Assembly (NCBI GenBank): GCA_038245295.1
Contig: JBBRSP010000001.1
Location: 32,001-96,000, forward strand
DNA: 64,000 bases
Source: Candidatus Binatia bacterium
GTDB taxonomy: Bacteria; Desulfobacterota; Binatia; HRBIN30
Direction of reading: 5' to 3'
Numbering within the stretch: position 1 is the first letter of the stretch; each line of letters opens with the position of its first letter. This document shows positions 10,818 through 18,473 of the stretch, piece by piece. The notes beneath the pieces are model-generated. The model searched no databases and had not been told where the DNA came from. It saw nothing but the letters and a program-made list of their open reading frames with translations. A program made the translations under genes and the position numbers.

Positions 10818-11396
10818 GTGGAGCGAACTGACAGTGAGCTTGTTCGAGAGACCAGACGGGGCGACAAGGATGCGTTTCGTGAACTGGTCGAGCGCTATCA
10901 GCGCAAAATCACCAGCGTTGCCCTCGGTATGGTCCGGAACCATGACGATGCGATGGAGATTGCCCAAGATACGTTTATCAAGGCCTACCAGAACTTGGAT
11001 GGGTTCAAGGGCGATTCGAGCTTCTACACATGGCTGTACCGCATCGTCGTCAACCGCGCCATTGACGTCCAGCGCCGAGAGCGCCGTCATCCCGTTGTCG
11101 CTGTTGAGGACCGGTTCGCATCCGACGATGGATCCGATCCCTACGAGAGAATTCACGTCGAACACCAACGTGGAGATCCGCATGAACAAACACAGTCCAA
11201 AGAGATCGGAGGGCGAGTGAAGCAAGCCATCGACGAGTTGACCCCCGATCACAAAGCCGTCATACTTTTGCGTGAGGTTGAAGGTCTTTCCTACGACGAG
11301 ATCAGTCGAATCATGCAGTGTTCTCTGGGTACCGTGATGAGTCGCCTCCATTATGCGCGCAAGAAGCTTCAGCGCAGCCTCAAGGACTGTATGTGA
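10818..11396 (+). CDS. ECF RNA polymerase sigma factor (RpoE-like)
   Basis: DAMEIAQDTFIKAY, SFYTWLYRI, EGLSYDEIS..GTVMSRLHYAR. Confidence 0.93.
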   Translation: MERTDSELVRETRRGDKDAFRELVERYQRKITSVALGMVRNHDDAMEIAQDTFIKAYQNLDGFKGDSSFYTWLYRIVVNRAIDVQRRERRHPVVAVEDRFASDDGSDPYERIHVEHQRGDPHEQTQSKEIGGRVKQAIDELTPDHKAVILLREVEGLSYDEISRIMQCSLGTVMSRLHYARKKLQRSLKDCM

Positions 11397-11438
11397 TGCG
11401 GCCGCTGACTCCCAAACAACGTAGAGATCGGGGCGGTT

Positions 11439-11996
11439 ATGCAAGCCGCTGAGTCACCTCTCTCCTGCAAAGACGTGGACGGACTGCTTCCCCTCTTCCT
11501 TGACGGGGAACTCGATGCGCGGCAGATGCGCGCCGTCGCCTTACACGGTAGTCGTTGTCTCGAATGCGAAAATGAGATCCGCTCCCTGGAGCGTCTCCAC
11601 GTCTTGATCAAGTCCACCGTTGAGGAGCAACTCGAGGCGGTCGACTTTTCTCACTTTTGGAACGATCTGAGCGCCAAACTTCCCCCGAAACGGTTGTCTT
11701 GGGCAACCCGGCTCCGCTCTCGCTGGGGTGACGCAGAAGGGTTCCGCTTCAATCCATACGTTGGATTGGCCGCGGCTGCGGCAGCTGCAGCTCTAGGCTT
11801 CCTACTCCTTAACACGCCGACAACACCGACGGTGCAGCCGGCGGCCCAGCAAGTTGCGTCGCAGGAAGACCCCGCGTCGATCGATTCGCTTTCTAGCGAT
11901 GTTAGCTCCGTTGCGGTCGTCAACGACCCCGAAACGAGCACAGCAGTTCTGTGGGTGAGCGACGATACGGTGGTCGACGACGGAGCCAACCGATGA
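11439..11996 (+). CDS. Zinc-finger (zf-HC2/ZAS) anti-sigma factor with TM helix
   Basis: LDGEL...HGSRCLEC (HxxxCxxC), then a hydrophobic Ala-rich segment. Confidence 0.85.
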   Translation: MQAAESPLSCKDVDGLLPLFLDGELDARQMRAVALHGSRCLECENEIRSLERLHVLIKSTVEEQLEAVDFSHFWNDLSAKLPPKRLSWATRLRSRWGDAEGFRFNPYVGLAAAAAAAALGFLLLNTPTTPTVQPAAQQVASQEDPASIDSLSSDVSSVAVVNDPETSTAVLWVSDDTVVDDGANR

Positions 11997-12757: not shown

Positions 12758-14020
12758 TTACGCCCGGCCTGCCTTGTCGCGGTAGTATTCAATCAGCAAG
12801 CTTGAGATCTCCGGTCGCAGAATGCGTGCGTCCGGTTTCTCACCTCCCGTGAGCAGGTCGCGGATCTTCGAGCCAGAGATCGATACCGGTTTCTCGTCGG
12901 CGTGGTTTTCCATGAGATCAACCCGGCCGACGCTCTCGAAGTAAGCGGCGAACCCGATGTTGCACGGGCGCGTTCGTAAATCGCCTTTCAGGTGGTTGAA
13001 GATCTCCTGTGCGTCGAAGTCTCCCCAAATCGGCGAACCGTCTTTGTACGGCGCGTCCGCGTGCTTGCGGCCGATGACGATGTCGGTGAAGCCATGATTT
13101 TGCCGATAGATCGCGTGCATGACGGCTTCCTTGGGCCCGCCGTACAGCATCTTGATGTCCAAGCCGACGAGTTCGAATACGTCGGTTAGGTCGTAGCCGC
13201 GATCTTTCCACAGAGCATCGTCCTTGTCTCCCTGCCCCAGAAGTTGCCCGTCGTGCAGAGCGCGGTAACAGCGCATGCGTACACGCGCCGGAACGTCATC
13301 GCCCTTGAGCTCACCGATGAGAGGATTGAGGACGACCCCGGCAAAGCTGCCTTCTCGCGTCAGACGCTCGACGCCGGCGACGAGCGCGTACTCGTGCGCT
13401 CGGTGCAATGGGTTACGCGTTTGGAAGGCGAGTGCACGCTCCCAACGACGCTCGGCAATCAGGGTGCGTGTCTGTCGCGGCGAGAAGACAAACTCGCCGT
13501 ATTCGGGGTCGATTCGCTGCGGCAGCGCCCAGATCTCGCCGCCCACGAGCTTGGTGCGTAGGTCCTCGGTGATGATCTGCCCGCCAGGGTGATCCATGCG
13601 ATTGGTGCCGTAGAACCGCTCGTTGTGTTTGGCCTTGTCCCAGTCGAATACATCGCTGATGCGCACCACGCCGACGATCGCACCCTCGTGGGCAAGGGCT
13701 GCCGAATGGCCAGGCTTCAGTGTTTTGGCCTCGTCATCGGTGACCGGCAACGAGATTGGAGCTGTCCATGCATAGTCCCGGAAGCCAAATTCGATGGAGG
13801 AGTTGTCGAGTACGTAATGCCATGTCTCTTCGTCCATGAATCCCGAGAGAGGCGACAGCGTGCCGTCCGCGATTCGATAAACCGTCGAGATATCGGCGCG
13901 GTTTACTTCGATGCGGGGCAGTGCACCGGCTTCGTGGAGAAACTGCTTGCGACGCGAGAGCGGTACGCTGCGCGAGACGGGCGCTTCTAGACCGCCATGA
14001 ACCTGGACCAGATCGGGCAT
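12758..14020 (-). CDS. sat: Sulfate adenylyltransferase (ATP sulfurylase)
   Basis: FQTRNPLHRAHE, YGGPKEAVMHAIYRQNHGFT..IGRKHA, ISGSKIR. Confidence 0.93.
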   Translation of the reverse strand: MPDLVQVHGGLEAPVSRSVPLSRRKQFLHEAGALPRIEVNRADISTVYRIADGTLSPLSGFMDEETWHYVLDNSSIEFGFRDYAWTAPISLPVTDDEAKTLKPGHSAALAHEGAIVGVVRISDVFDWDKAKHNERFYGTNRMDHPGGQIITEDLRTKLVGGEIWALPQRIDPEYGEFVFSPRQTRTLIAERRWERALAFQTRNPLHRAHEYALVAGVERLTREGSFAGVVLNPLIGELKGDDVPARVRMRCYRALHDGQLLGQGDKDDALWKDRGYDLTDVFELVGLDIKMLYGGPKEAVMHAIYRQNHGFTDIVIGRKHADAPYKDGSPIWGDFDAQEIFNHLKGDLRTRPCNIGFAAYFESVGRVDLMENHADEKPVSISGSKIRDLLTGGEKPDARILRPEISSLLIEYYRDKAGRA

Positions 14021-14081: not shown

Positions 14082-14708
14082 TCAATTCCTGTTCGTTGCC
14101 TCAAGCCCATGGTGCGGGCAACCTTCGACGGGCACCGACGAGATCAACTGGTCGCGCGCCAGATCGACGAGAGTCGATGTGGCGGCGGCCGACAAACCCA
14201 CCAGGTTTCGTAGCACGGCGAGGCTGGAAATACCGGCGAGCACAAGGGCGGACACATCACTCCAAAGCCGGTTGCATTCAAACCCGGGAATGCGAGCAAC
14301 GCAGGCACTGCACCATTGCCCGGTGCTGTGGTCCCTGAGCGGGCCAAGGATCTGGGGCGAGCTGTTTGTTCCGATCAGCCACGTCGGGACCCCGGAGCGC
14401 AGAATCTGCTGCGCGTCTGCTTCGGTAATGGCTGCCGCCACTACCGCTGCATCAACCTGGGAAAGCGAGGTGCTGAGATCGGCCCCGTGCACGACGCGGG
14501 TATCGGGGTTGTCGATCCGAAGGGAGTTAGACGAAACCAGAAGGAGGCCGACCCCGGCACGACCCAAGTAGCTAGCGACGGTCTCCGCCAGGCAACCACT
14601 GCCCAGTACGAGAACCCCGGAGGCGAGCAGGTTCGACTGAGCCGCGCCATTCATGTCTGGCAGCAGCAATTGCCGGCTGTAGCGTTCGATCTGGTTGTCC
14701 GTCAGCAT
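14082..14708 (-). CDS. Degenerate ThiF/MoeB/E1-like protein (keeps RYSRQ, lacks adenylation motifs)
   Basis: MLTDNQIERYSRQLLLPD..AAQSNL; P-loop GSGCLA; no DxD..SNLxRQ; CSAC and CPHH. Confidence 0.8.
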   Translation of the reverse strand: MLTDNQIERYSRQLLLPDMNGAAQSNLLASGVLVLGSGCLAETVASYLGRAGVGLLLVSSNSLRIDNPDTRVVHGADLSTSLSQVDAAVVAAAITEADAQQILRSGVPTWLIGTNSSPQILGPLRDHSTGQWCSACVARIPGFECNRLWSDVSALVLAGISSLAVLRNLVGLSAAATSTLVDLARDQLISSVPVEGCPHHGLEATNRN

Positions 14709-14722
14709 CGCGACCCGGGTGT

Positions 14723-15709
14723 CTAGTGGTGCGACTGTTGGCGCTCGCGCCAATCTTGCCAGCCGGCCCACAAATTTGTACTCAAATATCGATCCCCGAA
14801 GTCACAGAAGATAGCGACAATGATACCGGCGTCGAGCTCTCTGGCGATCCGCAAGGCGCCCACCATCGCGGCACCGGAGGACTGGCCGACCACCAGCCCT
14901 TCTTCCGCGGCAAGGCGGTAGACCATTTCGTACGCGACATCGGTCCCTATGCTCAACTTCCGATCAAGCTCATTCTCATGGTAAATGCCCGGGACAATCG
15001 AGCTCTCCATGTGCTTGAGCCCTTCCAGTCCATGCCAGGCGTCGTCCGGCTCGATCGCCACAACCTGGACGCTGGAGTTCCGCGACTTCAGATACCTCCC
15101 AGTGCCCATGATCGTTCCGCCCGTTCCGATACCGGCGACGAAATGGGTGATTTGGCCTCCGGTATCGCCCCAGATCTCCGGTCCAGTGCTTTCGAAGTGG
15201 GCGCGCGGATTCACTTCGTTAAAGTACTGGTCGGGTTTGAAATACTTTCCCGGCGATTCGGCGATGATCTTGCGGCACAACAGGATGGCTCCATCGGAAC
15301 CTTCCAAGGGATCACTGAAAATCGTCTTCGCTCCGTAGGCGTTGACGATCCGTTTGCGTTCGATGCTCACATTGGCCGGCATGACCAGTTCAACCGGATA
15401 TCCGAGCGCCGCACCCGCCATGGCCAGGGCGATTCCCGTGTTCCCCGATGTCGAATCGAGTATGGTCTTGCCGGCGCAAAGCTTGCCGTTCTGCAGCCCG
15501 TCGCGGACCATCCAAACGGCGGGACGGTCCTTGACCGAGCCACCAGGGTTGAGGCCTTCCAACTTGGCGAAGATCCGCACCCGCGGTGGAACGTTGTCGC
15601 GCAGCCTCTTGATCTCGATGAGCGGTGTGTTGCCGACGAGATCGAGAATCGATTCCGCTTTGCGCGGCCGCTGGGTCAGCGCCGCATCCTGTGCCACCCG
15701 TGCCGCCAT
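14723..15709 (-). CDS. cysM: PLP-dependent cysteine synthase (CysM-like)
   Basis: NPGGSVKDR, STSGNTGIA, GIGTGGT, GQSSGA, DFGDRYLST. Confidence 0.88.
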   Translation of the reverse strand: MAARVAQDAALTQRPRKAESILDLVGNTPLIEIKRLRDNVPPRVRIFAKLEGLNPGGSVKDRPAVWMVRDGLQNGKLCAGKTILDSTSGNTGIALAMAGAALGYPVELVMPANVSIERKRIVNAYGAKTIFSDPLEGSDGAILLCRKIIAESPGKYFKPDQYFNEVNPRAHFESTGPEIWGDTGGQITHFVAGIGTGGTIMGTGRYLKSRNSSVQVVAIEPDDAWHGLEGLKHMESSIVPGIYHENELDRKLSIGTDVAYEMVYRLAAEEGLVVGQSSGAAMVGALRIARELDAGIIVAIFCDFGDRYLSTNLWAGWQDWRERQQSHH

Positions 15710-15725
15710 GACGCGCTGACCAGAA

Positions 15726-16001
15726 TCAACCGCCGGCGATGGCGGGAACGATCGCCACTTCGTCTCCGTCCTTGAGCGCCGTTTCGAGGCTGTTCAGGAA
15801 GCGGATATCATCGTTGTTGACGAACAGATTGACGAAGCGCCGCACCTTGCCGGCCTCATCGCACAACCGCTCTTTGATGCCGGGGCATTTCTTCTCGAGA
15901 TCCTCAATTGCCTGCGCGACATTGGATCCTTCGACCGATACTTCCTCGGAGCCGCCGGTGAAGCGACGCAAAGGGGTTGGGATTCGAACGCGAACAGCCA
16001 T
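15726..16001 (-). CDS. Ubiquitin-like sulfur carrier (MoaD/ThiS/CysO family)
   Basis: [17 protein letters not shown]...[29 protein letters not shown] with exposed C-terminal GG. Confidence 0.93.
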
Positions 16002-16085
16002 CCTTACTTTCCTCCAATCATCGAATCCGGCGACCCGGTTGGGCGCAGCCAGAACCTCTCTTCGTTCCTTCATTCCGTTGTGAAG

Positions 16086-16859
16086 TCAACCGGAGTCGTC
16101 GCTTGTAGTGTGGGCACTCGATCCTTCCGACTTAGCAGCACCGCAAACCGGGCACTGCGGGTCGGGTGCCGTCGCGATCTGCCGCAACCCTCCGGTTCGG
16201 CCGTCGAAGAGCAGCAGGCTCCCCTGACGGAGCGGTGGCACCGATGGTTGGTCGATGACGCGCCACGCCTCCGCAGCCTGAAGGGCCCCGAGCACGCCAA
16301 CCACCGGCCCCAACACTCCGGCGCGCTCGCACGTCAGTGCCTCGTGCGATCTCGGCGGTTCGACAAACAGGCATCGCAAACACGCCGTGTGGCCCGGTCT
16401 AACCAGAAATAGTTGCCCCCGCCAACCGATGGCGCCGGCGTGGCAGAGCGGAATGCCAGCCCGCACACAGGCATCGTTCAACACGAACTTCGTGGCTTCG
16501 TCGTCGACCGAATCGACCACGACATCCGCCTCGTCGATGATGGCCGCAACGTTTGTGGCATCAACGTGCTGGGCGATGGCGGCGACACGCAGTGTAGGGT
16601 GATCGCGTTGGAGTCGAGCTGCGGCAACCCACACCTTGAGCGAACCGATGTCACTCTCCGCGTAGAGGAGTTGGCGGTGCAGATTCGAGAGCTCGATACG
16701 ATCCGCGTCGACGAGGGTGAGTCGTGAAATGCCCGCTGCCGCGAGGCCGACTGAAGCAGGAACTCCGAGGCCACCGAGGCCGATGACGACGGCGTGGCCT
16801 CGACGCAGCAGTGCCTCACCGGTGACGGCACCGGCCACCTCAGTAATAGGAACGTCCAC
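16086..16859 (-). CDS. ThiF/MoeB adenylyltransferase (E1-like) lacking the N-terminal RYxRQ segment; start uncertain (GTG 16859 or 16838)
   Basis: GLGGLG, DADRIELSNLHRQ, K, DSVDD, CLRC, LTCERAGVLG, CPVC; upstream part of the ORF overlaps bamD and is probably not translated. Confidence 0.88.
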   Translation of the reverse strand: MDVPITEVAGAVTGEALLRRGHAVVIGLGGLGVPASVGLAAAGISRLTLVDADRIELSNLHRQLLYAESDIGSLKVWVAAARLQRDHPTLRVAAIAQHVDATNVAAIIDEADVVVDSVDDEATKFVLNDACVRAGIPLCHAGAIGWRGQLFLVRPGHTACLRCLFVEPPRSHEALTCERAGVLGPVVGVLGALQAAEAWRVIDQPSVPPLRQGSLLLFDGRTGGLRQIATAPDPQCPVCGAAKSEGSSAHTTSDDSG

Positions 16860-17772
16860 GTCCAAAAGGATCGAAGGCCGGTCCCATCGCCGGCATCGCT
16901 CCGCCGCCGCGAGAAGGTGGACGCGGCAAGTCGAATGCCGGCAGTTGCACCGTCTCGAGCGCGCCGGGAGTGCGCTGTCGGCCATTGAGTGCAAGCAGAT
17001 CATCAATCGGATCGCTGGCCTTGCGCGTTTTTGGCAGACCGATCCTTTGCAACTCTTGTTGCGCCGTGATCGCTTCCGCGGTGCCGGGGTGCAGATTGGC
17101 GAGCGCCTGGTAGGCCAGGGCTGCCCGATCGTTCTGCTCGCGCGCCTGATACAACGCGGCAAGCTGGAGAAGGCCATCGACGGCACTGCTGGTATCACCA
17201 TAGTGCGCCGCCAAATCGAGCAAACGGGTTTCTTGCGCCGACTCATTATCGTGACGTCGATAGAACTCCGCCACGTAGAATTCGTGCTTGGCGAGGTGTT
17301 CGCGGCAGCGCGTGAGCTGTTGCCGCGCCAAGGTGGCGAAGGGGCTGTCTGGATACTGCCGCGAGACGGTCAAGAAATAGGTTTGCGCGTTTAATGCGGC
17401 TGTCTGATCGCGATCAATGAGGTCAATCTGCTTCGCGTAACACATTCCTAAAATGTACCCGATGAACGGCAGGTGGGCACTCGTCGGGTGGCGCCTCTGG
17501 AAATCCGACAGGGCTACGATGGCCTCGGCATAATTGCCGTCCAGATACTGCGCATGTGCAATCTTGAGTTCGGCTTCCTCGGTATGGTCGCTGAAGGGAT
17601 GTTGATCGAGCAACTCATGGTACTCTTCGACAGAACGCGACAACGAGCCGGATCGAAAATCGTTCGTCGCGTCGCGAAAGTACTCGTCGGCGGAGCGCAC
17701 AACCTTGTTCTCACAGCCGAACGTCAGGGCCAAGAAAATCAGCCATACGTGGCGAGTACGACGTTGATTCAT
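16840..17772 (-). CDS. bamD: Outer membrane assembly lipoprotein BamD
   Basis: Lipobox LTFG-C, TPR-like helices, HPFS, RDQT, YPDSPF, LAKHEFYVAEFY. Confidence 0.88.
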   Translation of the reverse strand: MNQRRTRHVWLIFLALTFGCENKVVRSADEYFRDATNDFRSGSLSRSVEEYHELLDQHPFSDHTEEAELKIAHAQYLDGNYAEAIVALSDFQRRHPTSAHLPFIGYILGMCYAKQIDLIDRDQTAALNAQTYFLTVSRQYPDSPFATLARQQLTRCREHLAKHEFYVAEFYRRHDNESAQETRLLDLAAHYGDTSSAVDGLLQLAALYQAREQNDRAALAYQALANLHPGTAEAITAQQELQRIGLPKTRKASDPIDDLLALNGRQRTPGALETVQLPAFDLPRPPSRGGGAMPAMGPAFDPFGRGRSYY

Positions 17773-18473
17773 AAAAGGATCACCCGCGTCCGTGCGGCTT
17801 CCCAAAGTCGTTCTTGGGCCTCGGGCCAGCGATCAAGAAATTCCTCGTCAAAGATAATGCGTAAGCGATCCGCCGTGTAGAAAATTAGCAAGCCACAGTC
17901 GTAGCGCCAACCTCTCGACGTGTCGCCGCCTGTGGCCGCATACATCGCCACCATATAGACCAGACGCGACAAATCGGCCTTTGTGCCGGCGTACTTCACC
18001 TCTCCCACTGCCCCAAACGGTAGGGGAAACTGCAATCGGAAGGCGGGAGCGATGGCGCGCGTCGGGGCCTTAAATACCGCCGCTGCACAATCGGTGAACT
18101 CTGGAACCTCGCTCCGCAGTCGTGCGAAGACGCGTTCGATGGCCGGCCGAGCCAGACCGAGCGCTGCCTCGTGCTGGGTAGGCCCCCTCTCTTCTCCTTC
18201 GTAGCGGAAGACCCGGAATGGGTCGGCCTCGACTTCGCGCTTGCGACACCATGCCACCAAAATGTCGTCGATCTTGTTGTAGAGAAGCCGTTGTCGAAAC
18301 GAGCTCTCGGTGTCGAATCTCTTCTTGGTGCGTTGCGCTTGCTCGTCACGAGCCTTTGCCAGAATCAAACGGACGCACTGCTTATCACCCAAGGTCTCGT
18401 CGGCCCTCAGATTACGTTCCAAGGTATCAAAGAACGCCCGCGCTGCCTCACGTTTTGGATCGAGGTTCACCAT
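17769..18473 (-). CDS. Hypothetical protein, possible PD-(D/E)XK-like fold
   Basis: AGGAG RBS; ATGA overlap with bamD; APAFRL..PLPFGAVGEVKY segment. Confidence 0.65.
   Translation of the reverse strand: MVNLDPKREAARAFFDTLERNLRADETLGDKQCVRLILAKARDEQAQRTKKRFDTESSFRQRLLYNKIDDILVAWCRKREVEADPFRVFRYEGEERGPTQHEAALGLARPAIERVFARLRSEVPEFTDCAAAVFKAPTRAIAPAFRLQFPLPFGAVGEVKYAGTKADLSRLVYMVAMYAATGGDTSRGWRYDCGLLIFYTADRLRIIFDEEFLDRWPEAQERLWEAARTRVILL

What the first reader, a model, noticed from the sequence alone, without database searches (positions are those of the whole stretch)
14082..16859. Two complementary, half-broken E1-like genes flank a ubiquitin-like protein: a candidate bacterial heterodimeric E1
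Seen: ThiF-A (16086-~16859) has the full adenylation set (GLGGLG, DxDxIxxSNLHRQ, K, DSVDD, two CxxC, LTCERAGV). It lacks the N-terminal RYxRQ segment, and its N-terminus abuts the bamD stop, leaving no room for one. ThiF-B (14082-14708) starts with MLTDNQIERYSRQ, but its P-loop is decayed (GSGCLA), the DxD/SNLxRQ/K segment is deleted, and only a variant Zn site (CSAC...CPHH) remains. Established: in the E. coli MoeB homodimer the second Arg of RYNRQ (Arg14) completes the partner's ATP site in trans. In eukaryotic NAE1(APPBP1)/UBA3 and SAE1/SAE2, a catalytically inactive adenylation subunit donates this arginine to the active subunit. Inference: ThiF-A and ThiF-B form an obligate asymmetric heterodimer that activates the co-encoded GG-terminated Ubl, paralleling the eukaryotic E1 architecture.
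Basis: partly seen in the sequence, partly recalled or inferred. Interest (0 to 1): 0.88.

Follow-up and report, generated by a model that had tools for sequence, protein, structure and literature searches.

The report
Two-gene split E1-like enzyme in Binatia
A cysteine-synthesis operon carries two complementary, half-degenerate copies of a ubiquitin-E1-like enzyme that are inherited together across most of a bacterial class and probably work as an asymmetric pair, as eukaryotic E1 enzymes do.

Summary
On the minus strand lie bamD, ThiF-A (16838/16859-16086), a GG-ended CysO/MoaD-like Ubl, cysM, ThiF-B (14708-14082) and sat. A has every adenylation motif but lacks the N-terminal RYxRQ segment. 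B keeps that segment but has lost the P-loop, SNLxRQ/Lys segment, catalytic Asp and crossover-loop Cys.

Neither is a sporadic defect. I examined 148 Ubl loci of the same class. Of these, 114 have A+B, 22 have one full-length ThiF and no B, and 2 have two full-length copies in the A and B positions. The 10 others are cut by a contig end or have a fragmented A gene. No locus combines a full-length ThiF with B, and no uncut locus has A without B.

B's most conserved part is its first 30 residues, and the second Arg of RYSRQ is invariant. B is predicted to fold like ThiF/MoeB. An A:B model scores ipSAE 0.88 (best control 0.00) and puts B's RYSRQ helix against A's SNLHRQ motif.

Best reading: duplication and complementary degeneration produced a heterodimeric, single-site E1-like CysO activator. 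"Obligate" is not shown, because published work reports the MoeB/ThiF arginine finger as non-essential. I class it as a new variant of a known kind.

The parts
16840..17805 (-). bamD (outer-membrane assembly lipoprotein); conserved upstream neighbour of ThiF-A
   Evidence: Pfam YfiO 6.9e-34; NCBIfam TIGR03302 BamD 170.5 bits, over its cut-off. A BamD homologue lies next to the A-type gene in most A+B loci.
16086..16838 (-). ThiF-A: the catalytic (active adenylation) subunit. It has all ATP/adenylation motifs, the crossover-loop Cys and two CxxC, but no N-terminal RYxRQ helix. Start GTG 16838 (alternative GTG 16859).
   Evidence: The alignment of 68 A-type proteins has these invariant positions: G20 G22 L24 G25, D44, S51 N52 L53 R55 Q56, K68, D109 D112, C153 C156, C170, C229.
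15726..16001 (-). CysO/MoaD/SAMP-like ubiquitin-fold sulfur carrier ending in Gly-Gly (the ORF is open to 16073)
   Evidence: Pfam ThiS 6.1e-18; NCBIfam MoaD_arch 54.1 bits, over its cut-off. It was found in 190 of 201 genomes of the class sample at E<=1e-10.
14723..15709 (-). cysM-type PLP cysteine synthase
   Evidence: Pfam PALP 3.6e-69. NCBIfam cysKM 344.6 bits (cut-off 344.15) and cysM 380.1 bits (cut-off 394.2).
14082..14708 (-). ThiF-B: non-catalytic ThiF-fold subunit. It keeps the N-terminal RYSRQ helix and the dimer-interface helices. The P-loop is decayed, the SNLxRQ/Lys segment is deleted, the catalytic Asp and crossover Cys are lost, and the Zn site is partly kept (CSAC...CPHH).
   Evidence: Family alignment A1. 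Predicted fold pLDDT 85, pTM 0.84. Foldseek top hits are ThiF 1zud (E 2.7e-12, TMq 0.73) and MoeB 1jw9.
12758..14020 (-). sat (sulfate adenylyltransferase), a frequent downstream neighbour of ThiF-B
   Evidence: Pfam ATP-sulfurylase 2.6e-54 plus PUA_2. Sat follows B in several related loci.

Best explanation
The operon encodes a thiocarboxylate-dependent (CysO/CysM-type) cysteine synthesis route. Its E1-like activating enzyme consists of two paralogous subunits that arose by duplication of one full-length ThiF/MoeB-type gene, followed by complementary degeneration. ThiF-A binds ATP and adenylates the C-terminal Gly-Gly of the Ubl. ThiF-B no longer binds nucleotide but keeps the ThiF fold, the dimer interface and the N-terminal RYSRQ helix. 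The two form an A:B heterodimer with a single active site (A's). B's N-terminal helix, with its invariant second Arg (the equivalent of MoeB Arg14), lies over that site in trans. The Ubl adenylate is then converted to a thiocarboxylate by a sulfur donor not encoded in A or B, since neither has a rhodanese domain. CysM uses the thiocarboxylate to make Ubl-cysteine, which a JAMM hydrolase encoded elsewhere would release.

Shown here: the gene content and motifs, the class-wide co-inheritance of A with B, the mutual exclusion of B with full-length ThiF, B's pattern of conservation, and B's predicted fold.

Inferred: the physical heterodimer (model only), the role of B's Arg, and the sulfur donor and release steps (by analogy with M. 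tuberculosis CysO/CysM/MoeZR/Mec).
For: (1) Complementary motifs are present in the window.

(2) A-type is a clade. By regex, only 5 of the 120 best homologues of A carry R[YF]xR[QH] in their first 80 residues.

(3) B-type is a family. An exhaustive HMMER search gave 2628 hits at E<=0.001. From P0001, P0003 and the listed hits P0125-P0272, 68 proteins pass a B filter: 185-245 aa, N-terminal RYxRQ-like motif, no P-loop, no SNLxRQ.

(4) In the survey of 148 Ubl loci (+-6 kb) of the class, 114 are A+B, 22 have a full-length ThiF only, and 2 have two full-length copies. Four have A only and all are cut on the B side. Five have B only; 4 of these are cut on the A side and 1 has a fragmented A. One locus is at a contig start with none. 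There are 0 cases of full+B and 0 of A+full. A+B occurs in 16 of the 19 families sampled (earlier versions).

(5) Intermediates exist in family f2. G005 and G108 have two full copies. G076 has an A whose N-terminus has decayed and a 254-aa B whose SNLHRQ has become LTALRRQ.

(6) In the tree, B rows together with the full copies at the B position form one side of a starred branch (98; 97 without the N-terminal columns). A rows group with the full copies at the A position (93). B branches are several times longer than A branches.

(7) Conservation in B is highest in residues 1-30 (3.2-3.5 bits, against 1-2.5 elsewhere). R12 is invariant in 68 of 68 sequences. Predicted interface positions are more conserved than the rest (2.36 vs 1.75 bits, Mann-Whitney p 3e-4).

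(8) The A:B+ATP model scored ipSAE 0.88 in each of three runs, with the best of 3 controls at 0.00. That mark was reached by 116 of 157 solved complexes and 2 of 215 mismatched pairs. The runs agree in >=92% of contacts and the partner pLDDT is >=77. B residues 8-13 touch A residues 50-55 (SNLHRQ).

(9) B's predicted fold matches ThiF/MoeB over its whole length.
Against: There is no physical or expression evidence. The complex model may pass from memory, because ThiF and MoeB homodimers are solved structures, and I could not compare A:A or B:B (one job only). Passages of PMC13139853 say the MoeB/ThiF arginine finger is not catalytically essential and that E. coli TcdA lacks it, so A could function without B. 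The 114 A+B loci are kin. The state may go back to a single event, and the AU test does not reject one A clade (p-AU 0.275), so the co-occurrence rests on few independent contrasts. The own genome also encodes a full-length Rhodanese-ThiF. The window's B has only a partial second Zn motif (CPHH). No B-A fusion protein was found (weak evidence).
Confidence: 0.7

Rival explanations
1. A works alone as a homodimer without an arginine finger, as E. coli TcdA does. B has been kept for a different, non-catalytic job, for example as a Ubl- or CysM-binding scaffold, a regulator, or a dock for a sulfur donor.
For: The arginine finger is reported as non-essential in MoeB/ThiF and absent from TcdA (passages of PMC13139853). 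B evolves fast outside its N-terminus. B always sits after cysM and often before sat.
Against: This does not explain why loss of A's N-terminal helix is found only where a B exists, nor why B is never found beside a full-length ThiF (0 of 148 loci). It also does not explain why B's best-conserved part is exactly the helix that A lacks. The A:B model is confident.
Confidence: 0.2
2. A pairs with the genome's other full-length ThiF (Rhodanese-ThiF on contig 12), which would donate both the arginine finger and the sulfur. B would then be irrelevant to A.
For: A full-length Rhodanese-ThiF exists in the same genome (Pfam positions 1-237). A and B lack a rhodanese domain, whereas M. tuberculosis MoeZR, which serves CysO, has one (PMC3227635, abstract seen in listing).
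Against: That gene is unlinked, is only 36% identical to A, and is complete in itself, so it is expected to homodimerise. The idea leaves the strict A/B co-inheritance unexplained.
Confidence: 0.05
3. B is a functionless, decaying duplicate.
For: The catalytic motifs are lost, a segment is deleted and the branches are long.
Against: An intact B ORF is kept in 114 of 148 loci across 16 families, with an N-terminal 30 residues at 3.2-3.5 bits, an invariant R12 and conserved Cys. It folds confidently (pLDDT 85).
Confidence: 0.03

Closest known systems
E. coli MoeB and ThiF (homodimeric E1-like adenylyltransferases of MoaD/ThiS)
   Same: The fold, the ATP-binding and adenylation motifs (in A), the Zn-binding CxxC pairs, a Gly-Gly sulfur-carrier substrate, and an N-terminal Arg contributed in trans across the dimer (MoeB Arg14, ThiF Arg11; passages of PMC13139853). 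B's model matches 1zud and 1jw9 best.
   Different: Those enzymes are symmetric homodimers with two active sites (PMC12355090, passage). Here each gene carries only half of the feature set, so only an A:B pair would rebuild one complete site.
M. tuberculosis CysO-CysM pathway with MoeZR and Mec
   Same: A GG-ended CysO-like carrier next to a CysM-type PLP enzyme, and a ThiF-family activator (PMC3227635, title and abstract from the listing).
   Different: MoeZR is a single full-length ThiF with a rhodanese domain. Here the activator is two genes without rhodanese, and no JAMM gene lies in the operon; a Prok-JAB gene lies about 320 kb away on the same contig.
Eukaryotic heterodimeric E1s NAE1-UBA3 and SAE1-SAE2 (inactive plus active adenylation domains)
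   Same: The adenylation core is asymmetric: one subunit has lost nucleotide binding and keeps the N-terminal Arg that completes the partner's site. This rests on my own recall for NAE1/SAE1. The IAD/AAD concept and UBA1 Arg57 are in a passage of PMC12355090.
   Different: There is no catalytic Cys domain, no UFD, no E2 and no conjugation, and the substrate is a sulfur carrier. The origin is independent, inside one bacterial class.
Bacterial BilD E1 of BilABCD antiviral systems
   Same: It is a bacterial E1 whose inactive adenylation domain supplies an Arg (Arg9) to a single active domain (passages of PMC10557695).
   Different: BilD is one polypeptide (IAD-AAD-CYS) in a true E1-E2-Ubl-DUB conjugation system. 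That paper states that all other known bacterial E1-like proteins are homodimers. Here there are two separate genes in a housekeeping sulfur pathway.
Yeast Tcd1-Tcd2 (ThiF-like heterodimer for ct6A)
   Same: Two ThiF-like paralogues of which one (Tcd2) is catalytic and the other (Tcd1) contributes an arginine finger (passages of PMC13139853).
   Different: It is eukaryotic, its substrate is tRNA, and both subunits are full-length with extra domains. The finger mutation had little effect there.

Membership tests
ThiF/MoeB/E1 adenylation-domain superfamily (Pfam PF00899) | Significant match to the family profile | tested here: met
   A scores 207.5 bits against a cut-off of 28.1. B scores 24.0 bits, under the cut-off, over positions 1-47 only, so B meets this by fold and not by the curated sequence threshold (next row).
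ThiF/MoeB/E1 adenylation-domain superfamily (Pfam PF00899) | Rossmann-like ThiF fold over the whole domain (tested for B) | tested here: met
   B's model has pLDDT 85 and pTM 0.84. Foldseek gives ThiF 1zud at E 2.7e-12 and TMq 0.73, and MoeB 1jw9 at E 6.6e-10.
Canonical homodimeric MoeB/ThiF adenylyltransferase | P-loop GxGGxG, the Arg of SNLxRQ, Lys and the catalytic Asp all in the same chain as the N-terminal RYxRQ arginine finger | tested here: not met
   A has the catalytic set but no RYxRQ. B has RYSRQ but none of the catalytic set.
Heterodimeric (IAD/AAD) E1 core | One subunit lacks nucleotide-binding motifs and the other is complete | tested here: met
Heterodimeric (IAD/AAD) E1 core | The inactive subunit supplies the N-terminal Arg to the active subunit's ATP site | tested here: inconclusive
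   R12 is invariant in 68 of 68 B-type proteins. In the model, B residues 8-13 touch A residues 50-55. Contacts with ATP were not reported, and there is no experiment.
Heterodimeric (IAD/AAD) E1 core | A physical A:B heterodimer | not testable with these tools
   Only a model is available: ipSAE 0.88 against a best control of 0.00. It may reflect likeness to solved ThiF/MoeB dimers.
Canonical conjugating E1 (Uba1, NAE, SAE, BilD) | A catalytic Cys domain inserted in the crossover loop, an E2 partner, and a UFD or E2-binding element | tested here: not met
   A is 250 aa with a short crossover loop bearing one Cys. The operon has no E2-like gene.
CysO/CysM thiocarboxylate-dependent cysteine synthesis | A GG-ended ThiS/MoaD-fold carrier adjacent to a CysM-type PLP enzyme and a ThiF-family activator | tested here: met
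   The synteny is conserved in 148 loci.
CysO/CysM thiocarboxylate-dependent cysteine synthesis | A rhodanese sulfurtransferase domain on the activator and a JAMM (Mec) hydrolase in the cluster, as in M. tuberculosis | tested here: not met
   A and B have no rhodanese domain. Prok-JAB genes occur only elsewhere in the genome. The chemistry itself is not testable here.

The most novel reading that the evidence does not exclude
Most of the class (labelled Candidatus Binatia/Binatota by the sources of homologues) runs its housekeeping CysO activation on a two-gene heterodimeric E1-like enzyme. It would have evolved from a homodimer independently of eukaryotic E1s and of BilD. Living intermediates survive in one family: two full-length copies in G005 and G108, and half-decayed copies in G076. 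If so, the homodimer-to-IAD/AAD transition thought to underlie all canonical E1s could be replayed step by step with natural proteins.
Probability: 0.55. Interest if true: 0.8.

Novelty: new variant of a known kind. Interest (0 to 1): 0.72.

Why it matters
Canonical E1 enzymes are thought to descend from MoeB/ThiF-like homodimers by duplication and inactivation of one adenylation domain, but the intermediate steps are not observable in eukaryotes. Here a bacterial class shows the same kind of asymmetry in a simple sulfur-carrier enzyme. It shows the ancestral state (one full gene), the duplicated state (two full genes), a half-decayed state and the fully complementary state side by side.

This gives a tractable system for asking what the inactive subunit and its arginine finger actually contribute. 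That question is open, since the finger is reported as dispensable in MoeB/ThiF. It also defines an unannotated protein family: B-type proteins are labelled 'hypothetical protein' or are mis-named adenylyltransferase/sulfurtransferase by sources. Finally, it corrects the expectation that every ThiF-family gene next to cysO/cysM is an active enzyme.

Tried and rejected
Searches for relatives of B in named genomes:
- (search for related loci with B alone in genome contigs): 167 pattern matches, none confirmed.
- (same scan with the B alignment): the pattern matched ordinary ThiF N-termini. Of 80 loci, only L158 (a MAG labelled Deltaproteobacteria) has a true B, and it has an A in the same locus. 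This gave no usable picture of the range outside the class.
- (word-based search): only 1 close B homologue. The exhaustive search was needed.

Motif rules:
- My first rule ([ST]N[LIV]x[RP][QH]) mis-called canonical enzymes with NNLQRQ as 'B' (61 of 81 ORFs). I tightened it and recounted.
- Seven B-like ORFs with a changed first Arg (for example DHYSRQ, EWFSRQ), and L086, were first scored 'other' or 'frag'. They are B by inspection.

Other tests:
- Two independent losses of A's N-terminus: the tree suggests it, because the f2 A groups with the f2 full copies (97*). The AU test does not reject a single A clade (p-AU 0.275), so I do not claim it.
- Fused B-A or A-B proteins (Rosetta stone): (longer proteins) gave 6 hits. 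Four carry ThiF plus rhodanese Pfam domains, and one of those also a ThiS domain. One carries a further N-terminal domain (PF26450) with ThiF and rhodanese. P0276, inspected, has a single canonical ThiF domain followed by a C-terminal extension with no second ThiF domain. None is a fusion. This is weak evidence.
- Earlier scan notes by sequence: nothing.
- Upstream 'RWDRP' in A's frame as a hidden arginine finger: rejected.
- A:A and B:B models for comparison could not be run, because the cap is one complex job.
Full report
ANATOMY. On the minus strand the window carries six genes in a row:
- bamD, 17805-16840
- ThiF-A, 16838 or 16859 to 16086
- a ThiS/MoaD-fold Ubl ending in Gly-Gly, 16001-15726 (the ORF is open to 16073)
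- cysM, 15709-14723
- ThiF-B, 14708-14082
- sat, 14020-12758

Pfam and NCBIfam confirm each assignment. ThiF-A matches the Pfam ThiF profile from position 16 to 238 of 238 (207.5 bits). ThiF-B matches positions 1-47 only (24.0 bits, under the 28.1 cut-off) and NCBIfam MoeB PRK05690 positions 3-91 of 250.

The bamD stop is at 16842-16840. The GTG used by the public gene call (P0005, 250 aa) follows one base later. A's reading frame stays open upstream across bamD and there reads 'RWDRP' 36 residues before the P-loop. I read 80 A-type ORFs of relatives from stop to stop. Only one has any R[YFW]xR within 60 residues upstream, and that one is at -10. Many have a stop 15-30 residues upstream. I therefore take the motif in the window as chance and conclude that A-type proteins really lack the segment.

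A AND B ARE BOTH FAMILIES. Of the 120 best homologues of A, only 5 carry R[YF]xR[QH] in their first 80 residues. Most start about 12-20 residues before the P-loop.

A word-based search found just one close relative of B (P0003, 43% identity). An exhaustive HMMER search found 2628 hits at E<=0.001. From P0001, P0003 and the listed hits P0125-P0272, 68 proteins pass a B filter: 185-245 aa, N-terminal RYxRQ-like motif, no P-loop, no SNLxRQ.

Their alignment (A1) has L2, R12, Q24 and G52 invariant. Q6, R9, Y10, S11, Q13, G20, G23, L27, L28, G36, L48, A51, G54, C133, C136 and C197 are at least 90% conserved. Sixteen of these 20 positions lie in the first 54 residues. Information content is 3.2-3.5 bits per column in residues 1-30 and 1-2.5 bits elsewhere.

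Sources name these proteins 'hypothetical protein [Candidatus Binatia bacterium]' or 'adenylyltransferase/sulfurtransferase'. The nearest ESM-Atlas clusters are mostly Candidatus Binatota (a lead only).

The A-type alignment (A2, 68 sequences) keeps every catalytic position invariant: the P-loop, D44, SNLxRQ, K68, D109/D112, the crossover Cys C170, and both CxxC.

CO-INHERITANCE. The CysO-like Ubl is present in 190 of 201 sampled genomes of the class at E<=1e-10. That tally includes the unpublished genomes G177 and G087.

I fetched +-6 kb around every row listed except the own genome and G177. This gave 148 loci; G192 contributes two. The 80 further matches that one search did not list were not examined, and 11 genomes had no match.

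I classified the ThiF-like ORFs with an HMM built from A1 plus motif rules. The result for the 148 loci:
- A+B: 114.
- One full-length ThiF and no B: 22.
- Two full-length ThiFs, one in the A position and one in the B position: 2 (G005, G108).
- A only: 4. Each is cut by a contig end on the cysM/B side.
- B only: 5. Four are cut on the A side; in L124 the A gene is fragmented.
- Neither: 1. The Ubl is at a contig start.

No locus combines a full-length ThiF with a B, or an A with a full-length copy.

By family, the full-length state is found in f6 (10), f15 (11) and f17 (1). The A+B state is found in 16 families. Family f2 holds both the doubled full-length state (2) and A+B (1).

The usual order is bamD, A, an optional ThrC-like PLP gene, Ubl, cysM, B, and often sat.

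These loci are kin, so the number of independent contrasts is small.

INTERMEDIATES AND TREE. In f2, G108 has two canonical copies. In G005 the B-position copy already has a weakened P-loop (GAGAVG). G076 has an A whose N-terminal segment has decayed in sequence, and a 254-aa B in which SNLHRQ has become LTALRRQ without the deletion seen elsewhere.

In a quick maximum-likelihood tree of 78 rows, the B rows plus the two B-position full copies form one side of a starred branch (SH-aLRT 98). With the N-terminal columns removed, the starred set (97) holds 25 of the 26 B rows plus both full copies. The A rows group with the A-position full copies (93).

Sub-clades of A and B mirror each other by genome family. 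B end branches are about 1-3 changes per site, against 0.1-0.8 for A.

The tree places the f2 A with the f2 full copies (97*), which would mean two independent losses. The AU test does not reject a single A clade (p-AU 0.275), so I leave that open. Long-branch warnings apply to the B rows.

STRUCTURE AND COMPLEX. B folds confidently (mean pLDDT 85, pTM 0.84). Its best structural matches are E. coli ThiF (1zud, E 2.7e-12, TMq 0.73) and MoeB (1jw9) over the whole chain. B is therefore a complete ThiF fold without the catalytic residues.

The A:B+ATP model scored ipSAE 0.88 in each of three runs, and the best of 3 controls scored 0.00. That mark was reached by 116 of 157 solved complexes and by 2 of 215 mismatched pairs. 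The runs agree in at least 92% of contacts, and the partner pLDDT is at least 77. The calibration holds only roughly here, because I supplied my own alignments and a ligand rode along.

The interface includes B residues 5, 8-13, 15-16 and 18-19 (the RYSRQ helix) against A residues 50-55 (SNLHRQ). One reported pair is A:51 with B:9. ThiF and MoeB homodimers are solved structures, so the pass may come from likeness. It shows that the pair is compatible with the family's dimer geometry, not that it binds.

Predicted interface positions of B are more conserved than the others: 2.36 vs 1.75 bits (Mann-Whitney p 3e-4). Without residues 1-30 the values are 2.00 vs 1.54 bits (p 0.002).

LITERATURE. 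For each paper below I saw passages only.
- PMC13139853 states that ThiF Arg11 and MoeB Arg14 are arginine fingers from the neighbouring subunit, that these fingers are not essential, and that E. coli TcdA lacks one. It also states that yeast Tcd1-Tcd2 is a ThiF-like heterodimer in which Tcd1 gives the finger to the catalytic Tcd2.
- PMC10557695 describes BilD, a bacterial E1 with an inactive and an active adenylation domain in one chain. Its Arg9 comes from the inactive domain. The paper says that all other known bacterial E1-like proteins form homodimers.
- PMC12355090 describes MoeB and ThiF as homodimers in which both subunits are active.
- PMC3227635 (title and abstract in the listing) covers MoeZR serving CysO.

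Searches for a described two-gene bacterial ThiF pair found none. This covers the held library only.

INTERPRETATION. The simplest account of all this is a duplication of the operon's ThiF followed by complementary degeneration. A kept catalysis and lost the trans-acting helix. B kept the helix and the interface and lost catalysis. An A:B heterodimer then has one complete site.

The account explains three things. A without its helix occurs only with B. B never accompanies a full-length copy. Selection on B is concentrated on the helix.

What it does not establish is that the pair is obligate, nor that the Arg is what matters, given the published non-essentiality. B might instead stabilise A, impose single-site asymmetry, or dock another partner.

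The own genome also has a Rhodanese-ThiF and a JAB-ThiF fusion elsewhere, and a separate Prok-JAB gene. The sulfur donor and the hydrolase of the pathway are thus probably encoded outside the operon. This is inferred by analogy with M. tuberculosis.

VERDICT. I class it as a new variant of a known kind: an asymmetric E1-type adenylation core, here as two genes in a bacterial sulfur-carrier pathway, conserved class-wide, with natural intermediates. Interest 0.72.

Noticed in passing
L025-L254 (e.g. L032:6445-7728, minus strand); absent from the window: In 42 of 80 A-type loci and 16 of 17 full-length loci of the first 100 surveyed, a gene of about 1.3 kb lies between the ThiF gene and the Ubl. 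It is a ThrC-like PLP enzyme with an N-terminal Cys-rich ribbon (Pfam PALP 3.4e-69 plus a NinF-like zinc motif). In the window A and the Ubl are adjacent.
   Followed up: partly
own genome G000:C12:13662-14366 (L001) and G000:C6:177396-178094 (L003): The genome also encodes a full-length ThiF with an N-terminal rhodanese domain, and a ThiF preceded by a weak Prok-JAB match (a JAB-ThiF fusion in a 516-aa open frame). A separate Prok-JAB gene lies at G000:C1:367971-368306.
   Followed up: partly
L026 (G005), L034 (G108), L048 (G076): One family (f2) holds the doubled full-length state and a half-decayed A/B pair. These are natural intermediates of the split.
   Followed up: yes
L124 (G037): The A-position gene appears broken into two ORFs (188 aa and 145 aa), while B, cysM, the Ubl and sat are intact. 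This could be a frameshift or an assembly error.
   Followed up: no
L079 and L122 (G192): One genome (8% contamination by the table) gives two Ubl loci on different contigs, each cut at a contig end. They may be two strains in one bin or a real duplication.
   Followed up: no
window 10818-11996 (+): An ORF pair just beyond sat looks by eye like an ECF-type sigma factor and an anti-sigma factor with a Zn-finger-like N-terminus. I did not scan them against families.
   Followed up: no
window 17769-18473 (-): The 234-aa ORF upstream of bamD has no Pfam match at E<=0.01.
   Followed up: no
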